This document shows, piece after piece, positions 15,053 through 21,315 of a DNA stretch of 64,000 bases. The translations under genes were made by a program, and so were the position numbers. Position 1 is the stretch's first letter. Each line of letters starts with the position of its first letter. The stretch spans positions 4,659 to 68,658 of the IMG/VR virus record IMGVR_UViG_3300012521_000003; one strand, given 5' to 3'. Under the pieces are notes generated by a model. It was not told the DNA's origin and made no database searches. It saw only the letters and a list, made by a program, of their open reading frames with translations. This stretch comes from a virus.

Positions 15053-15853
15053 CTAAGCTATCTCAGCTAATGGATTCAGATTTGACTTACAGGCCTTTGT
15101 GTAATCGCAATATTTGCAGGCAGTACACTTAACAGCTTCTGGAAGAGTCTTAGAGTCTACGTGTTTCTTAGCGGTTCTCATTTTCTCCTTGGCACGCTCT
15201 TTCATCTCTTCGGTTATCGTTATTCTATAAGCCTTGATGGTCATATAGTTTCTATCTACGTAGAGAAAAATAACCTCGTCCATATCGAGGCCGATAGAAT
15301 AATAAGTGGCCTGCTCTATATGCTGGTCATCCGGTGCTATTCTCTTCATCCATTTAAAATGATCCTCCGATTTTATCTCAATCAGGATACTACGGTTCTT
15401 AAAAAGTATAGCACCGTCGAACATGAATGAGAGGTTCCACTCGTCATTTATACAGTGGCACTCATATGGGTTATCGGTAGAATGAGTTGTCTCTGCTACC
15501 CTTGTAGGTATACCCCGCTCTGCAGCTAGAGCGACAACAGCTCTGGGCTCCTTGAATATAATACCTTGATTGGATCCTTGAAACATAGCCTCCTGTATCA
15601 GAGAATGGATAAAGGTTCCGACCTTCTGTATCATTATCAGCTTCGGGTCGGTAGTTGTTACTGCATTAGCAGGAGCTCCGGTTAATATGTAGTACATCTG
15701 CCTCAGGCACATTGTCTTAGAAGGCTTTATGTTCTGCTTTGTCCTTTGGCTAGGAGGGTTGTTCACCCTTATAGAGTCGAATATAGCCTCTACTAGAGAA
15801 TTCTCAATATCCTGCTGCTTGGTCTGCTTGTTAATCAATCCGGCTAAGCCCAT
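15053..15853 (-). CDS. Cas4-like PD-(D/E)XK exonuclease with Fe-S cysteines
   Basis: PSKTMCLRQ, GTFIH, FDG...IEIKS, QATYY, CTACKYCDYTKAC. Confidence 0.85.
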   Translation of the reverse strand: MGLAGLINKQTKQQDIENSLVEAIFDSIRVNNPPSQRTKQNIKPSKTMCLRQMYYILTGAPANAVTTTDPKLIMIQKVGTFIHSLIQEAMFQGSNQGIIFKEPRAVVALAAERGIPTRVAETTHSTDNPYECHCINDEWNLSFMFDGAILFKNRSILIEIKSEDHFKWMKRIAPDDQHIEQATYYSIGLDMDEVIFLYVDRNYMTIKAYRITITEEMKERAKEKMRTAKKHVDSKTLPEAVKCTACKYCDYTKACKSNLNPLAEIA

Positions 15854-16328
15854 CTATTTCGCCTCCTGGCATTATAACTTTTATCAGCTCAATCCCGGCA
15901 GATAATAGAAGATCTTTACCGAGATTATTGCCATAATCCTCTATATAGAATATCCGTCTAAAATATCTCCTTTTGAGTATCTCTATACAGCAGTCTATAC
16001 AGGGAAACAGGGTCACATATAGATATCTATTCAATATAGAGTCTGGTGGAACCAGGTTGTCTGAAGCTTCCAGAGCCATGACCTCTGCGTGTTCTCCGTT
16101 ACAGGGTTTCTCAGTACCAGGTTCCATGCCTTTATGAGAACAGTGGTCTCCATGAAGACATCCACTGCCATTAAATCCAGAGGTTACTATAAGGTCTTCA
16201 GTAACTCTCACCACTGCACCTACATGCCTGCGAGAGCACTCACTCTCTTTCGCACTCTTTACAGCATAGGCTAGCAGCTTTTGGTCTAGAGGATCGAGAG
16301 TCTCAAAGGAGACAGTCTGGAGACCCAT
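15831..16328 (-). CDS. dCMP deaminase
   Basis: SECSRRHVGAV, SGFNG, HAE, PCIDC zinc motifs. Confidence 0.92.
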   Translation of the reverse strand: MGLQTVSFETLDPLDQKLLAYAVKSAKESECSRRHVGAVVRVTEDLIVTSGFNGSGCLHGDHCSHKGMEPGTEKPCNGEHAEVMALEASDNLVPPDSILNRYLYVTLFPCIDCCIEILKRRYFRRIFYIEDYGNNLGKDLLLSAGIELIKVIMPGGEIDGLSRID

Positions 16329-16918
16329 TATTCGCGGCCTCCAGACATATAATAGTGGGCACTTCCGATATGCACCACCAGCTCCTCTTCAACAGGACCC
16401 TCCTCGGGCTTTATATACTCGGTATTCATCCTACGGAGTATCTTAGCAAGAGCCATCAGATCCATGGGAAGTAGGCTTACAACATCTGAACTTCTCATAT
16501 AGACTATAAGCTTAGTCTTATTACCCCTCTTGATATACTGAGCTAAGCTTATACAGTCATTGCTGAAGACTACGGTCTTACGATTTTCGAGGGGAGCCTT
16601 AAAGAAGTATGCTAGCTCCTTGACCTTGTGGAGCAGGCTGTACTCCAGCTGCTTATAGTGGTACTCCTCGTCGCGGTACTTACGTCGATAGTATTTACCG
16701 TAATAGTCCACTACACCATCTTCTACCTCGTCTAGGTATACGGACCTATGCTTGTTGGCGAAATGGTCAAACCAAGCTGTGTGGATATGTAAGGTTACAT
16801 CCACAAGCTCCTTCGTAGTCTCGTGTGTCTCTCCTTCTAGGTCTATCTTATCCTTGAGCTCCTTGCAGGCATTCAGTATTGGATTCATTATGTACTCGGG
16901 TTTATTCAGATCCAGCAT
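16328..16918 (-). CDS. Thymidylate synthase-fold protein B (divergent, dCMP-type Asp)
   Basis: NDCISLAQY...YMRSSDVVSLLPMDL...IGSAHYY aligns with the ThyA catalytic core. Confidence 0.8.
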   Translation of the reverse strand: MLDLNKPEYIMNPILNACKELKDKIDLEGETHETTKELVDVTLHIHTAWFDHFANKHRSVYLDEVEDGVVDYYGKYYRRKYRDEEYHYKQLEYSLLHKVKELAYFFKAPLENRKTVVFSNDCISLAQYIKRGNKTKLIVYMRSSDVVSLLPMDLMALAKILRRMNTEYIKPEEGPVEEELVVHIGSAHYYMSGGRE

Positions 16919-17394
16919 CGTAAGTCCTCTCCTCTGTAAGCTTTGACAAAGTTGACTATCTGGTTTACAACTTGCTGTGGGTCTCCTCTTGAGGTATCGA
17001 TTATCAGCTTATGGGCTATGTTAGACCACTGTATGTAGTCTCTGAAGAGTCTGTCGATTTTCAGATAGTTTTCGAGGGCTCTCTCCTTGTCAATACCCTG
17101 TTCCTCCTTACAGATCCTAACTCTCTGAGTGTCAGGATCTGTTACCAGCAGGATCAGGTACACATCGAATATTTTGAGGAGCTCAGTCTCTGCCTCGCGA
17201 TACTTGTTCAGATCACTCTCCCTGCCATAGAACTGGTCGTAGACAATATTGGAGCCGATAAAGCGATCTATGACCAAGGGCTGATAGTCGGTTGATCTTC
17301 TTAGTAATTGATATACTGTAGACTTCCCTACCTTGTCCCCGCCCTCTAATATTAGAAGGATTGGCTTGGGGGTCTCAATAGCGTACGAACTCAT
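16906..17394 (-). CDS. Thymidylate kinase-like dNMP kinase
   Basis: ILEGGDKVGKST P-loop, VIDRF..S..VY, IIDTS. Confidence 0.88.
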   Translation of the reverse strand: MSSYAIETPKPILLILEGGDKVGKSTVYQLLRRSTDYQPLVIDRFIGSNIVYDQFYGRESDLNKYREAETELLKIFDVYLILLVTDPDTQRVRICKEEQGIDKERALENYLKIDRLFRDYIQWSNIAHKLIIDTSRGDPQQVVNQIVNFVKAYRGEDLRCWI

Positions 17395-20014: not shown

Positions 20015-20025
20015 TTATGAACCTC

Positions 20026-20682
20026 CTATTCAAAGATATGCATGGATCCAACCATGAATTGTACAAAACCGGGTTCAACTCCGACTCCCTGAGCAATCTC
20101 TTCAAGGAGTCGGGTCGATGTGTAGATGTCGTTACCGAGACACTTGGTAACTTCTAGACTTCTCATCAGGTAAAGCATGTTGAGCTTACCGTTCCTTAAG
20201 AGGAAGTGGTATCCGAGACTACAGGGTACTCTTTCTTGTTCCAGAGCAGTTATGTCGCTTATCGGATCCCAGATGCTTAGGTAAGCTTGTCTCGTCTCCG
20301 GATGAGTCTTAAGGATATCGACTATAGAGTCGATCTGGTAGTACATACGTTCTGAGTAGGTGTATCTCAATGTACCATCAGGAAGTAGATAGTTCTTAAG
20401 TACCCCAACTTCATCGAACTGGACGGCTTTTCCGGGGTTAACAGGATGTGCTGAGAGTCTATCCTGAAGGTCGGTCTCTGCGAATACGACGCTCAATCCA
20501 TTCTCAGCCATCATCTCCGCTCGGTCTTCCCACTTATATATTCTGAAGCTTTGACCCAGATCCTCTCGGCATATACGCTTACGGCCGGTAGAGTTGCCTG
20601 CGCTAAGTTCCACAGGGGGTAGCTTCTTCAGATGTTCTACCAATGTCGGTATTACTGATCTGGTGTGATGAAACTCGAACAT
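20026..20682 (-). CDS. Thymidylate synthase-fold protein A, dCMP hydroxymethylase-like
   Basis: YTYSERM, TRQAYLSIWD, VPCSLGYHF, MRSLEVTKCLGNDI, GSMHIF. Confidence 0.88.
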   Translation of the reverse strand: MFEFHHTRSVIPTLVEHLKKLPPVELSAGNSTGRKRICREDLGQSFRIYKWEDRAEMMAENGLSVVFAETDLQDRLSAHPVNPGKAVQFDEVGVLKNYLLPDGTLRYTYSERMYYQIDSIVDILKTHPETRQAYLSIWDPISDITALEQERVPCSLGYHFLLRNGKLNMLYLMRSLEVTKCLGNDIYTSTRLLEEIAQGVGVEPGFVQFMVGSMHIFE

Positions 20683-20691
20683 ACGTCCTCC

Positions 20692-21315
20692 TTAATATCC
20701 ATTAGCTTGACGACGGAAGTTTTCTTCGTTCTTGCTCATATAGTAGTTGAATATATCCTGTTTGGAGAGTCTCAGGATTTCAAAACCCTGACGAAGAGTA
20801 CTCGAGAGGGCGGGGATCATAAAGGTAACATCAGGGAACTTTATAACGTCGCCGATCCCTAGTATCATTCGCTTCACCCACTCCTTTAGCTTTAGAGTGA
20901 GCTCCTCGTCTGAAAGAGGCGGAAGCTGGAGGACCGCTTCGTTAGGCTCTATCATCATAGGCTCGGGGGCTAGTCCAGCGACCTGATATAGATTGACTAG
21001 GAAGTGAAGGATATCTATCATCTCAAAGGCTATCTCCGATCTCTTAATCGGTTCCGCGTCTCGATATGACCTCCAGTGCTTCCAGTTGGTCCAATTAAGA
21101 ACCTCGGAGACTTCGTCCATCAGACAGATACAGAGTTCTTCTACCCACTGAACCATAAGGTCGTAGTTTCCGTACTCAGCCCGCTCCCTTATTTTATCAA
21201 AGGGAATAAACTTACCAGCAAACTTTCTCTGGTACTCGAAGATAGTATGTATCGCTGTGTCTGGGTTATAGGGATGCTCTCTAAGCATATCTCCCATTAT
21301 CTTCTGGTCACTCAT
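20692..21315 (-). CDS. dut: Dimeric all-alpha dUTPase/dCTPase
   Basis: DEVSEVLN..WKHW, EMIDILHF, YMSKNEENFRRQANGY; likely start MSDQK at 21315 after AGGAGG. Confidence 0.88.
   Translation of the reverse strand: MSDQKIMGDMLREHPYNPDTAIHTIFEYQRKFAGKFIPFDKIRERAEYGNYDLMVQWVEELCICLMDEVSEVLNWTNWKHWRSYRDAEPIKRSEIAFEMIDILHFLVNLYQVAGLAPEPMMIEPNEAVLQLPPLSDEELTLKLKEWVKRMILGIGDVIKFPDVTFMIPALSSTLRQGFEILRLSKQDIFNYYMSKNEENFRRQANGY

What the first reader, a model, noticed from the sequence alone, without database searches (positions are those of the whole stretch)
15831..21315. Candidate new pyrimidine-modification pathway: eight-gene cluster with two TS-fold enzymes, a rewired ThyX and a UGM-like flavoprotein
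Seen: a tightly packed - strand run of dUTPase/dCTPase, TS-fold A, ThyX-fold, FAD oxidoreductase, HAD nucleotidase, dNMP kinase, TS-fold B and dCMP deaminase. Known: phages that replace a base before replication use this logic of modifying enzyme, dedicated kinase and pyrophosphatase that removes the canonical dNTP. T4 uses gp42, gp1 and gp56 for hmC; SPO1 uses dCMP deaminase, dUMP hydroxymethylase and a kinase for hmU. Inference: three C5-pyrimidine-chemistry folds plus a sugar-mutase-like flavoprotein in one operon match no pathway I can name. They suggest a multistep, nucleotide-level synthesis of a modified (possibly glycosylated) cytosine, or of a uracil derivative after deamination. No DNA glycosyltransferase is visible in the window.
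Basis: partly seen in the sequence, partly recalled or inferred. Interest (0 to 1): 0.92.

Follow-up and report, generated by a model that had tools for sequence, protein, structure and literature searches.

The report
Phage deoxypyrimidine-remodelling operon with odd ThyX
An uncultivated tailed phage carries a tightly packed eight-gene operon that probably swaps cytosine in its DNA for a C5-modified cytosine, as phage T4 does, and the operon also holds a widespread, uncharacterised trio (divergent ThyX, small flavoprotein, nucleotidase) whose chemistry is unknown.

Summary
Window 15831-21354 (- strand) holds eight abutting or overlapping genes in the stated order: gp56-like dUTPase/dCTPase, TS-fold A, divergent ThyX, FAD flavoprotein, HAD nucleotidase, P-loop kinase, TS-fold B and dCMP deaminase.

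- Five of the eight genes reproduce the T4 logic of dCTPase, dCMP C5-transferase, kinase and dCMP deaminase.
- Both TS-fold proteins carry Asp at ThyA position 177, the cytosine-specifying residue. Neither carries the D169N signature of 5-hydroxy-dCMP synthases.
- The "UGM-like" protein shares only the general amine-oxidase/PPO/UGM fold. No sugar enzyme or glycosyltransferase was found.

What is new:
- The long ThyX (about 350 aa, altered RHR/Ser/Tyr motif, five invariant C-terminal Cys), the roughly 300-aa flavoprotein and the HAD/dUTPase_2 pair recur together in 23 distinct uncultivated-phage loci.
- Fusions link the genes: kinase-TS-B, dUTPase_2-HAD, flavoprotein-HAD and flavoprotein-dCMP deaminase.

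The product is not determined. My best guess is a C5-substituted dC, with a flavin-dependent thymidylate or unknown branch alongside.

The parts
20692..21354 (-). All-alpha NTP pyrophosphatase of the dimeric dUTPase/dCTPase family, similar to T4 gp56. The likely start is Met14 at 21315.
   Evidence: PF08761 E 1e-16 and phrog_173. BLASTP against T4 gp56 gives E 6e-9, including the C-terminal KNxxNFxRQxNGY motif. In most related loci this domain is fused to the HAD domain.
20026..20682 (-). TS-A: a short (218 aa) thymidylate-synthase-fold enzyme of cytosine type. ThyA numbering: Cys146 kept, L143R, H147S, D169E, N177D.
   Evidence: PF00303 E 1.7e-11. Best PDB hits are MilA CMP hydroxymethylase and the N229D TS mutants. 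Alignment A3. Nearest isolate homologues lie in C. perfringens phages beside a glycosyltransferase, a dUTPase and a kinase. The best NCBIfam hit is the roughly 200-aa methanogen-type TS.
18962..20014 (-). ThyX-long: a divergent flavin-dependent thymidylate-synthase paralogue of 350 aa with a C-terminal Cys-rich extension (invariant C267, C273, C287, C292, C310).
   Evidence: PF02511 E 2.6e-16. AF2 model pLDDT 89 with ThyX fold, Z 16 over about 209 aa. The RHRxxSxxxxSxRY motif becomes R[T/A]RxG....GxRD, while the two base/phosphate Arg (R205, R232) are invariant. At least 244 clusters occur in metagenomes. There are no close relatives in isolated phages.
17940..18938 (-). Compact (332 aa) FAD flavoprotein with the amine-oxidase/PPO/UGM fold. 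Its family is uncharacterised.
   Evidence: No Pfam, PHROG or NCBIfam hit. It has the GxGxxG, GGQ, GPRIL and GRFARWxH motifs. AF2 pLDDT 94. VIA scores: eukaryotic UGM Z 20-21.5, PPO Z 19.6, bacterial UGM Z 17. 868 representatives at 50% identity. Fused forms carry NT5C or dCMP deaminase domains.
17375..17968 (-). HAD-superfamily phosphatase of the NT5C (5'(3')-deoxyribonucleotidase) type. DxDG motif present.
   Evidence: PF06941 E 1.7e-7, above cut-off. Found beside ThyX-long in 22 of 23 loci, usually as a dUTPase_2-HAD fusion of about 300 aa. PDB gives only generic HAD similarity.
16906..17394 (-). Small P-loop nucleotide kinase related to dTMP kinase and deoxynucleoside kinase.
   Evidence: PF02223 E 2.4e-7 and phrog_761. 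The L005 orthologue hits dNK. A natural kinase-TS-B fusion exists, P0158 of 337 aa.
16328..16918 (-). TS-B: a minimal (196 aa) TS-fold protein of cytosine type. Cys146, R166, S167, D169, H207 and Y209 are kept; N177D; H147I; there is a deletion before the catalytic Cys.
   Evidence: phrog_160 E 8.6e-5. Family profile A4 hits only T4 dCMP hydroxymethylase in the PDB, E 9e-4. Alignments. No match in isolated phages.
15831..16328 (-). dCMP deaminase with the HAE and PCxxC zinc motifs present.
   Evidence: PF00383 E 5e-13 and phrog_174 E 4e-23. Sequence.
8720..9430 (-). Second, canonical ThyX (236 aa) with an intact RHRxxSxxxxSxRY motif.
   Evidence: PF02511 E 1.5e-27. Sequence. Aligns to M. tuberculosis ThyX. 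Two Thy1 genes occur in 4 of 5 related genomes checked first.

Best explanation
This is a replication-module operon that rebuilds the deoxypyrimidine pool before replication, in T4 fashion, so that dC is replaced by a C5-substituted dC.

Proposed steps:
1. The gp56-like pyrophosphatase converts dCTP (and dUTP) to monophosphates.
2. TS-A and/or TS-B are short TS-fold enzymes with the catalytic Cys, the cytosine-specifying Asp at ThyA position 177 and no His147. They attack C6 of dCMP and install a one-carbon group at C5. Hydroxymethyl is most likely, because the residue at position 143 is hydrophilic.
3. The small P-loop kinase phosphorylates the modified dNMP. Host NDP kinase and the phage PolA then put it into DNA.
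4. dCMP deaminase diverts part of the dCMP to dUMP. That feeds the flavin-dependent branch, ThyX-long working with the partner flavoprotein. I take this branch to make dTMP or a close uracil C5 derivative.
5. The NT5C-type HAD nucleotidase drains an unwanted canonical monophosphate.

Shown: gene identities, folds, active-site residues, conserved synteny and gene fusions.
Inferred: every substrate and product, the role of the flavoprotein and of the Cys-rich ThyX tail, and that virion DNA is modified.
For: - Both TS-fold proteins, and all 22 small TS-likes in related loci, have Asp at ThyA N177. They keep Cys146, R166, S167 and H207.
- Asp177 and a non-His residue at 147 are the two positions that separate TS homologues on fully cytosine-modified contigs from those on unmodified ones (PMC8670742).
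- TS-A's best PDB hits are a CMP hydroxymethylase and the N229D dCMP-accepting TS mutants. The TS-B profile hits only T4 dCMP hydroxymethylase.
- The pyrophosphatase resembles T4 gp56.
- A kinase-TS-B fusion, P0158, ties the TS-B product to phosphorylation.
- TS-A's nearest isolate homologues sit beside a glycosyltransferase, a dUTPase and a kinase.
- Thymidylat_synt, dCMP_cyt_deam_1, Thy1, dUTPase_2, NT5C, DNA_pol_A, RecA and DNA ligase are all present in this window. All are significantly enriched on contigs whose cytosines resist APOBEC3A (supplementary table 2 of PMC8670742).
- The module is conserved in 23 loci with either PolA or PolIII-alpha replisomes.
Against: - No product was measured and no isolate exists.
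- Position 143 is Arg (TS-A) or Ser (TS-B), not the Asp/Glu of proven hydroxymethylases. TS-A has D169E.
- TS-B lacks the Trp80/Trp83 folate-contact region in alignment A3, so its one-carbon donor is uncertain.
- No glycosyltransferase or other post-replicative tailoring enzyme was found.
- A nucleotidase fused to the dCTPase/dUTPase domain would compete for dCMP, so its role in this scheme is awkward.
- Two cytosine-type TS-likes in one operon are not explained.
- The MetaGPA association is at Pfam-family level, not for this contig.
- ThyX-long keeps both Arg that hold the uracil nucleotide, and it is the only Thy1 found in 10 incomplete related records. It may therefore be an ordinary thymidylate synthase.
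Confidence: 0.45

Rival explanations
1. The long ThyX, the flavoprotein and the HAD/dUTPase_2 pair form a new flavin-dependent pathway. It makes a non-thymine C5 derivative of a uracil (or cytosine) nucleotide. The dUTPase_2-HAD fusion removes the competing canonical dNTP and dNMP, as the dTTPase and dTMPase of hmU and U phages do. The TS-likes, kinase and deaminase feed this pathway or act alongside it.
For: - ThyX-long coexists with a canonical ThyX in this genome and in 3 of 4 other genomes checked first, including every record that is at least 90% complete.
- The ThyX signature residues are changed family-wide: RHR to R[T/A]R, Ser88 to Gly, Tyr91 to Asp (T. maritima numbering).
- A Cys-rich tail of about 90 aa is invariant.
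- ThyX-long is 60-70% identical between phages whose neighbouring genes are only 25-45% identical.
- The trio is near-universal across 23 loci.
- Flavoprotein-HAD and flavoprotein-dCMP deaminase fusions exist.
- Some lineages (L014 type) have the trio, a kinase and a deaminase but no TS-like.
- Acid-quenched ThyX is known to release 5-hydroxymethyl-dUMP. This is from my own knowledge, not tested here.
Against: - The two Arg that bind the uracil nucleotide (R205, R232) are invariant, as expected of a true dUMP methylase.
- The kinase looks like dTMP kinase.
- Ten incomplete related records show only the long ThyX, so it may be their sole thymidylate synthase.
- No chemistry has been assigned to the flavoprotein.
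Confidence: 0.27
2. This is an ordinary nucleotide-supply cluster and the DNA is canonical. dCMP deaminase, dUTPase, ThyX and dTMP kinase supply dTTP. The TS-likes are degenerate or redundant thymidylate synthases. The HAD and the flavoprotein are housekeeping accessories.
For: Each family has a housekeeping role. The ThyX fold and its Arg contacts are retained. No glycosyltransferase, methyltransferase or aGPT-Pplase was found among the ORFs scanned.
Against: - All TS-likes have Asp177 instead of Asn, and the catalytic residues are strictly conserved. That is selection on a dCMP-type site.
- A kinase-TS-B fusion exists.
- The genome already has a canonical ThyX.
- The pyrophosphatase is gp56-like.
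- The gene families are enriched on cytosine-modified contigs.
Confidence: 0.13
3. One reading: a multistep synthesis of a glycosylated pyrimidine, in which the flavoprotein acts as an NDP-sugar (UGM-type) mutase.
For: The top structural matches are eukaryotic UGMs at Z 20-21.5. A phage-encoded UDP-galactose mutase is proposed to take part in DNA glycosylation in Rhizobium phage RL38JI (PMC13326640).
Against: - PPO scores within 2 Z units of UGM, and bacterial UGMs score lower.
- Only the N-terminal FAD motif aligns to E. coli Glf.
- There is no GLF Pfam hit.
- No glycosyltransferase or NDP-sugar enzyme was found in the scanned ORFs of the 72.6-kb genome.
- The flavoprotein's fusion partners are nucleotide enzymes.
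Confidence: 0.03

Closest known systems
T4 deoxypyrimidine set: gp56 dCTPase/dUTPase, gp42 dCMP hydroxymethylase, gp1 dNMP kinase, cd dCMP deaminase, td thymidylate synthase
   Same: The logic and fold classes match for five genes: an all-alpha dCTPase/dUTPase (pairwise E 6e-9 to gp56), a short TS-fold enzyme with Asp at N177, a P-loop kinase, dCMP deaminase and a thymidylate synthase function.
   Different: - Thymidylate synthesis here is flavin-dependent (two ThyX genes) rather than ThyA.
- There are two cytosine-type TS-likes.
- Position 143 is Arg or Ser, not Asp.
- There are no glucosyltransferases.
- A HAD nucleotidase and a flavoprotein are added.
- All genes sit in one operon instead of being scattered.
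5-hydroxy-dCMP synthases of RB69, DLP3 and RL38JI (TS homologues that use a flavin and O2; PMC13326640)
   Same: A TS-fold enzyme with N177D acts on dCMP with a dedicated kinase. Flavin chemistry is linked to a TS-fold enzyme. A flavoprotein gene is present in the cluster.
   Different: The diagnostic D169N is absent: TS-A has Glu and TS-B has Asp. No arabinose or NDP-sugar genes and no DNA glycosyltransferases were found. The flavin protein here is a separate Rossmann-type FAD enzyme.
Flavin-dependent thymidylate synthase ThyX, and its paralogue PolB (UMP/dUMP methylase)
   Same: ThyX fold (Z 16, about 209 aa aligned). The Arg residues equivalent to T. maritima R78, R80, R90, R147 and R174 are conserved.
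   Different: - His79 becomes Thr/Ala, Ser88 becomes Gly, Tyr91 becomes Asp, and the His after the conserved Glu is lost.
- There is an extra N-terminal helix, an insertion, and a tail of about 90 aa with five invariant Cys.
- It scores below the TIGR02170 equivalog cut-off (42 against 87.9 bits).
- It coexists with a canonical ThyX.
hmU and U phage thymine-exclusion enzymes (SPO1/phi-e dTTPase-dUTPase, PBS2 dTMP phosphatase, dCMP deaminase, hmdUMP kinase). From my own knowledge.
   Same: The combination of NTP pyrophosphatase, 5'-nucleotidase, dCMP deaminase and dedicated kinase matches. The dUTPase_2-HAD fusion would take a dNTP all the way to the nucleoside.
   Different: The TS-fold enzymes here are cytosine-type, not dUMP hydroxymethylases. 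A thymidylate synthase is present rather than inhibited.
UDP-galactopyranose mutase, protoporphyrinogen oxidase and amine oxidase flavoproteins; also PaMx11 gp47, a flavin-dependent lyase in thymidine hypermodification
   Same: Two-domain FAD fold with an N-terminal GxGxxG motif. gp47 sets a precedent for a flavoprotein in phage pyrimidine modification.
   Different: The protein is only 332 aa and lacks the helical domain. It belongs to no Pfam or PDB sequence family. gp47 is MnmC/DAO-like and acts on DNA together with 5-HMUDK and aGPT-Pplase, neither of which was detected here.
Uncharacterised TS/glycosyltransferase/dUTPase/kinase cluster of C. perfringens phages (CPAS-15, CPD4 and others) and the TS of Gordonia Ponsvirus
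   Same: These are the closest isolate homologues of TS-A (28-40% identity). They share the RVPC catalytic motif and Asp177, and have dUTPase/MazG and kinase neighbours.
   Different: They have no ThyX-long, flavoprotein, HAD or TS-B. CPAS-15 has a glycosyltransferase.

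Membership tests
Thymidylate synthase / dCMP hydroxymethylase superfamily (PF00303) | Sequence match to the family model above the curated cut-off | tested here: met
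   TS-A scores 44.3 bits against a cut-off of 24.3. TS-B gets no Pfam hit itself. Its family profile matches T4 dCMP hydroxymethylase at E 9e-4, and phrog_160 matches at E 8.6e-5.
Thymidylate synthase / dCMP hydroxymethylase superfamily (PF00303) | Catalytic Cys146 with R166, S167, R126, Y94 and H207 (E. coli numbering) | tested here: met
   These are invariant columns in alignment A3 for TS-A, TS-B and their orthologues. They are also conserved in 22 small TS-likes.
dCMP-specific TS homologues (T4 gp42 type) | Asp in place of ThyA Asn177, and a non-His residue at 147 | tested here: met
   TS-A has ...GNDIY... with H147S. TS-B has ...PMDL... with H147I. The criterion comes from PMC13326640 and PMC8670742.
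dCMP hydroxymethylase (hydroxymethyl product) | Acidic residue (Asp/Glu) at ThyA L143 | tested here: not met
   TS-A has Arg. TS-B has Ser, next to a deletion. Both are hydrophilic but not the described signature, so the product is uncertain.
5-hydroxy-dCMP synthase (RB69 gp48 type) | Asn in place of ThyA Asp169 | tested here: not met
   TS-A has Glu and TS-B has Asp, whereas RB69 gp48 has Asn in the same alignment.
Flavin-dependent thymidylate synthase ThyX | ThyX fold | tested here: met
   VIA Z 16.5, rmsd 2.9 A, 209 aa aligned to M. tuberculosis ThyX. All top 47 entries are ThyX or PolB.
Flavin-dependent thymidylate synthase ThyX | ThyX signature motif RHRxxSxxxxSxRY | tested here: not met
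   ThyX-long has R-[T/A]-R-x-G-x-x-x-S-x-x-G-x-R-D. The second ThyX at 8720-9430 has the intact motif.
Flavin-dependent thymidylate synthase ThyX | dUMP to dTMP activity with CH2-THF, FAD and NADPH | not testable with these tools
   Needs thyA complementation or an enzyme assay.
UDP-galactopyranose mutase (GLF, PF03275) | Sequence membership in the GLF family | tested here: not met
   No Pfam hit at E 0.01 or below. hhalign of A1 against E. coli Glf aligns only 48 N-terminal columns, probability 1%.
UDP-galactopyranose mutase (GLF, PF03275) | A structural match that stands clearly above other flavoprotein families | tested here: inconclusive
   Eukaryotic UGM Z 20-21.5, PPO Z 19.6, bacterial UGM Z 17.
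T4 gp56-type dCTPase/dUTPase (dUTPase_2) | Family match and similarity to gp56 | tested here: met
   PF08761 scores 62 bits against a cut-off of 22.9. BLASTP to T4 gp56 gives E 6e-9. Substrate preference was not tested.
Thymidine hypermodification system (5-HMUDK + aGPT-Pplase; PMC8989533) | An aGPT-Pplase (amino-acid:DNA transferase) gene and a dUMP hydroxymethylase with Asn177 | tested here: not met
   No aGPT-Pplase hit among the ORFs scanned. The TS-likes have Asp177.

The most novel reading that the evidence does not exclude
ThyX-long, its partner flavoprotein and the HAD/dUTPase_2 pair make up a previously undescribed flavin-dependent pathway for modifying deoxypyrimidine nucleotides. 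The Cys-rich tail may bind a metal or an Fe-S cluster. The pathway would produce a base not yet catalogued. It is widespread in uncultivated phages, with at least 244 ThyX-long clusters at 90% identity and 868 flavoprotein representatives at 50% identity. It works beside a T4-like cytosine replacement, so these genomes could carry two different non-canonical pyrimidines.
Probability: 0.3. Interest if true: 0.88.

Novelty: new variant of a known kind. Interest (0 to 1): 0.7.

Why it matters
Pre-replicative base replacement is a major phage counter-defence, and it is a reason why many phage genomes resist restriction, cloning and some sequencing chemistries. All characterised pyrimidine pathways begin with a ThyA-fold enzyme. 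None uses a ThyX-fold enzyme or an amine-oxidase-fold flavoprotein.

Here a sharply conserved ThyX paralogue and a very large family of roughly 300-aa viral flavoproteins with no annotation are tied to deoxypyrimidine enzymes. The ties are synteny across 23 loci and four independent gene fusions. If the pair does new chemistry, it would add a second enzymatic entry point to modified pyrimidines. It would also annotate hundreds of viral protein clusters that currently have no function.

If the pair only supplies dTMP, the cluster is still a compact, testable example of a T4-like cytosine-replacement operon with two unusual minimal TS-fold enzymes.

Tried and rejected
- DNA and protein searches of 50,697 isolated-phage records. 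No near relative of the cluster, the flavoprotein or TS-B turned up. ThyX-long had only three weak hits.
- Sequence search of the PDB with the flavoprotein, alone or as a profile. Nothing significant.
- Complex prediction of ThyX-long with the flavoprotein. It gave no verdict, which is neither support nor evidence against.
- Idea that the canonical ThyX at 8720-9430 is interrupted by an intron or a frameshift, because its C-terminus is divergent. There was no Rfam hit in 6500-10000, and no alternative frame carries a ThyX C-terminus. I treat the gene as intact.
- Idea that TS-A and TS-B form an obligate heterodimer. I set this aside because TS-B-type proteins occur without TS-A in many loci.
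- Idea that TS-A is a truncated pseudogene. I rejected this. All orthologues end at the same place just after the H207-x-[YF] motif, RB69 gp48 and CPAS-15 TS are nearly as short, and the "1 TAG" is only the gene's own stop codon.
- ESM Atlas search with the ThyX-long C-terminal tail. It returned only Thy1 fragments.
- Literature searches for a described ThyX-long/flavoprotein pathway. None was found.
- PDB entries 9IQU, 9IQC and 9IR2 (234-238-aa "thymidylate synthase") match TS-A. I could not trace them to a paper.

Full report
CONTEXT. The window is bases 4659-68658 of a 72.6-kb IMG/VR virus record that CheckV rates as complete. It is a siphovirus-like phage. It has a terminase, a portal, an HK97-type capsid protein and a 3270-aa tape-measure protein. 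Its large replication module is all on the - strand: PolA, DnaB, primase, SSB, two sigma-like factors, RecA, RuvC, a Cas4-type exonuclease, class II RNR and a DNA ligase. No isolated phage is close to it. The cluster has no megablast hit, and PolA is at most 34% identical to polymerases of Clostridium and Bacillus phages.

OBSERVATION. The eight ORFs are present exactly as described, and they abut or overlap, with spacings from a 23-bp gap to a 29-bp overlap. Family searches confirm dUTPase_2, Thymidylat_synt (TS-A), Thy1, NT5C/HAD, a thymidylate-kinase-like P-loop kinase and dCMP deaminase. TS-B is too divergent for Pfam. A profile of 14 family members matches only T4 dCMP hydroxymethylase in the PDB, across the catalytic core (E 9e-4). 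The 332-aa protein matches no family library. It has GxGxxG, GGQ and GPRIL motifs. It folds with pLDDT 94 into the amine-oxidase/PPO/UGM flavoprotein architecture. The same eight-gene order recurs in four other metagenomic contigs.

THE TS-FOLD PROTEINS. I aligned them with E. coli ThyA, T4 gp42 (makes 5hmdCMP), RB69 gp48 (makes 5hodCMP) and the closest isolate homologues. TS-A and TS-B both keep Cys146, R126, R166, S167, Y94 and H207. Both have Asp at ThyA Asn177, and neither has His147. All 22 small TS-likes (146-248 aa) in related loci show the same Asp.

Asp177 is the established determinant of dCMP over dUMP. Positions 177 and 147 are the two positions that best separate TS homologues on fully cytosine-modified metagenomic contigs from those on unmodified ones (PMC8670742; PMC13326640). 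The D169N signature of 5hodCMP synthases is absent: TS-A has Glu and TS-B has Asp. The L143D/E signature of hydroxymethylases is also absent, with Arg in TS-A and Ser in TS-B. The nature of the C5 group is therefore inferred, not shown.

The short length is normal for this branch. TS-A's orthologues all stop just after the H207 motif, and gp42, gp48 and the methanogen-type TS model are similarly short. TS-A's nearest isolate relatives are in C. perfringens phages. There the gene lies next to a glycosyltransferase, a dUTPase and a kinase, which looks like a hypermodification cluster. It is also found in Gordonia Ponsvirus.

THE T4-LIKE CORE. The dUTPase_2 protein resembles T4 gp56 dCTPase/dUTPase (E 6e-9). 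A natural 337-aa fusion of the kinase with TS-B exists (P0158). That links the TS-B product to phosphorylation. The dCMP deaminase has intact zinc motifs. Five of the eight genes therefore reproduce the T4 scheme of dCTPase, dCMP C5-transferase, kinase and deaminase.

There is independent, indirect support. In the MetaGPA experiment, Thymidylat_synt, dCMP_cyt_deam_1, DNA ligase, DNA_pol_A, Thy1, dUTPase_2, RecA and NT5C are all significantly enriched on phage contigs whose cytosines resist APOBEC3A. All of these families are encoded in this window.

THE UNEXPLAINED TRIO. ThyX-long has a genuine ThyX fold (Z 16). It belongs to a family of at least 244 metagenomic clusters. Across that family the ThyX signature is altered: RHR becomes R[T/A]R, Ser88 becomes Gly and Tyr91 becomes Asp (T. 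maritima numbering). The Arg residues that hold the nucleotide are invariant. A C-terminal tail of about 90 aa carries five invariant Cys.

I compared ORFs across 23 non-redundant loci, 18 of them fetched by scanning viral contigs with a ThyX-long profile. ThyX-long sits with a HAD/dUTPase_2 protein in 22 loci, usually as one fused polypeptide of about 300 aa. The flavoprotein is present in 18 loci, and in at least three more once a short 258-aa divergent form is counted. A small TS-like is present in 17, the kinase in 13 and dCMP deaminase in 11. These loci use either PolA or PolIII-alpha replisomes.

The flavoprotein family is very large, with 868 representatives at 50% identity, nearly all 280-340 aa. 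It includes fusions to an NT5C nucleotidase (P0225) and to a dCMP deaminase (P0201). The flavoprotein is therefore a deoxypyrimidine-pathway enzyme, not a sugar enzyme.

A SECOND ThyX. The genome also encodes a canonical ThyX with the intact signature motif at 8720-9430, directly downstream of the RNR gene. Two Thy1 genes, one canonical and one long, are present in 4 of the first 5 genomes checked. That includes all three records that are at least 90% complete. In ten further records, all 26-76% complete, only the long form was found. Coexistence argues that the long form is not redundant. The incomplete records leave open that it can serve as the sole thymidylate synthase.

WHAT IT MOST LIKELY DOES. 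I commit to a T4-like replacement of dC by a C5-substituted dC. TS-A and/or TS-B would make it, with the gp56-like pyrophosphatase and the kinase. dCMP deaminase would feed a flavin-dependent uracil branch in which ThyX-long works with the flavoprotein. My confidence in this is 0.45.

The main rival, at 0.27, is that the ThyX-long, flavoprotein and HAD trio performs new chemistry and yields a second non-canonical pyrimidine. In that reading the fused pyrophosphatase-nucleotidase excludes the canonical nucleotide, as the dTTPase and dTMPase of hmU and U phages do. A purely housekeeping reading gets 0.13. It conflicts with the conserved Asp177 sites, the kinase-TS fusion and the extra canonical ThyX. 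The glycosylation/UGM reading gets 0.03. It lacks any glycosyltransferase or sugar-nucleotide gene among the ORFs of at least 100 aa that I scanned in the window and the larger ORFs in the two genome ends. It rests only on a fold class shared with PPO and amine oxidases.

NOVELTY. The general strategy is known. Several things are not described in the literature I could search. One is the ThyX paralogue with its altered motif and Cys-rich tail. Another is the large flavoprotein family and its fusions. A third is the minimal cytosine-type TS-B family. The last is the combination of all of these in one operon. I file the finding as a new variant of a known kind, with about a 30% chance that the trio is a truly new pathway.

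Noticed in passing
window 8720-9430 (-): A canonical ThyX (236 aa, intact RHRxxSxxxxSxRY motif) lies just downstream of the class II RNR. The genome therefore has four C5-pyrimidine enzymes: two ThyX and two TS-fold. Its C-terminal 60 aa or so do not match the Pfam model (profile positions 11-153 of 191 only).
   Followed up: partly
window 42869-52681 (-): A single 3270-aa ORF matches tape-measure protein families. That implies an exceptionally long tail.
   Followed up: no
window 6804-7106 (-) and 1767-3626 (+): A MazE/AbrB-type antitoxin-like protein (PF04014, E 6e-11). Separately, a 619-aa + strand protein with a GHKL (HATPase_c_3) ATPase domain and no PHROG match. Either could be involved in defence or counter-defence.
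   Followed up: no
window 25703-26317 (-) and 7289-7798 (-): Two sigma-70-like or HTH proteins. The first has regions 2 and 4; the second has region 4 only. They suggest phage-directed promoter recognition.
   Followed up: no
window 24685-24761 (-): One tRNA-Leu gene (anticodon TAG) lies between the PolA and SSB genes.
   Followed up: no
window 22048-24510 (-): The PolA protein has an N-terminal Ros/MucR-type zinc-finger-like segment of about 45 aa (PF05443, E 4e-6).
   Followed up: no
L026 2127-6708 and 18313-18969: In a related contig, PolA is split by two GIY-YIG homing-endonuclease genes. The RNR there carries an intein with a LAGLIDADG domain.
   Followed up: no
L005 9936-13036; also L006 and L007: In phages of about 110 kb the ThyX-long/flavoprotein/HAD module sits with a dNK-like kinase, an aldo-keto reductase, a DUF5651 protein and a radical SAM/SPASM enzyme. 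This may be a more elaborate version of the pathway.
   Followed up: no
L024 5141-8941; L025 12469-14375: Relatives with the module encode UDG-family domains fused to PolIII-alpha (L024) or adjacent to PolA (L025).
   Followed up: no
window 35357-35722 (-): A small GNAT-like acetyltransferase with weak Pfam hits (E about 1e-4) lies next to a helicase gene. No link to the cluster has been established.
   Followed up: no
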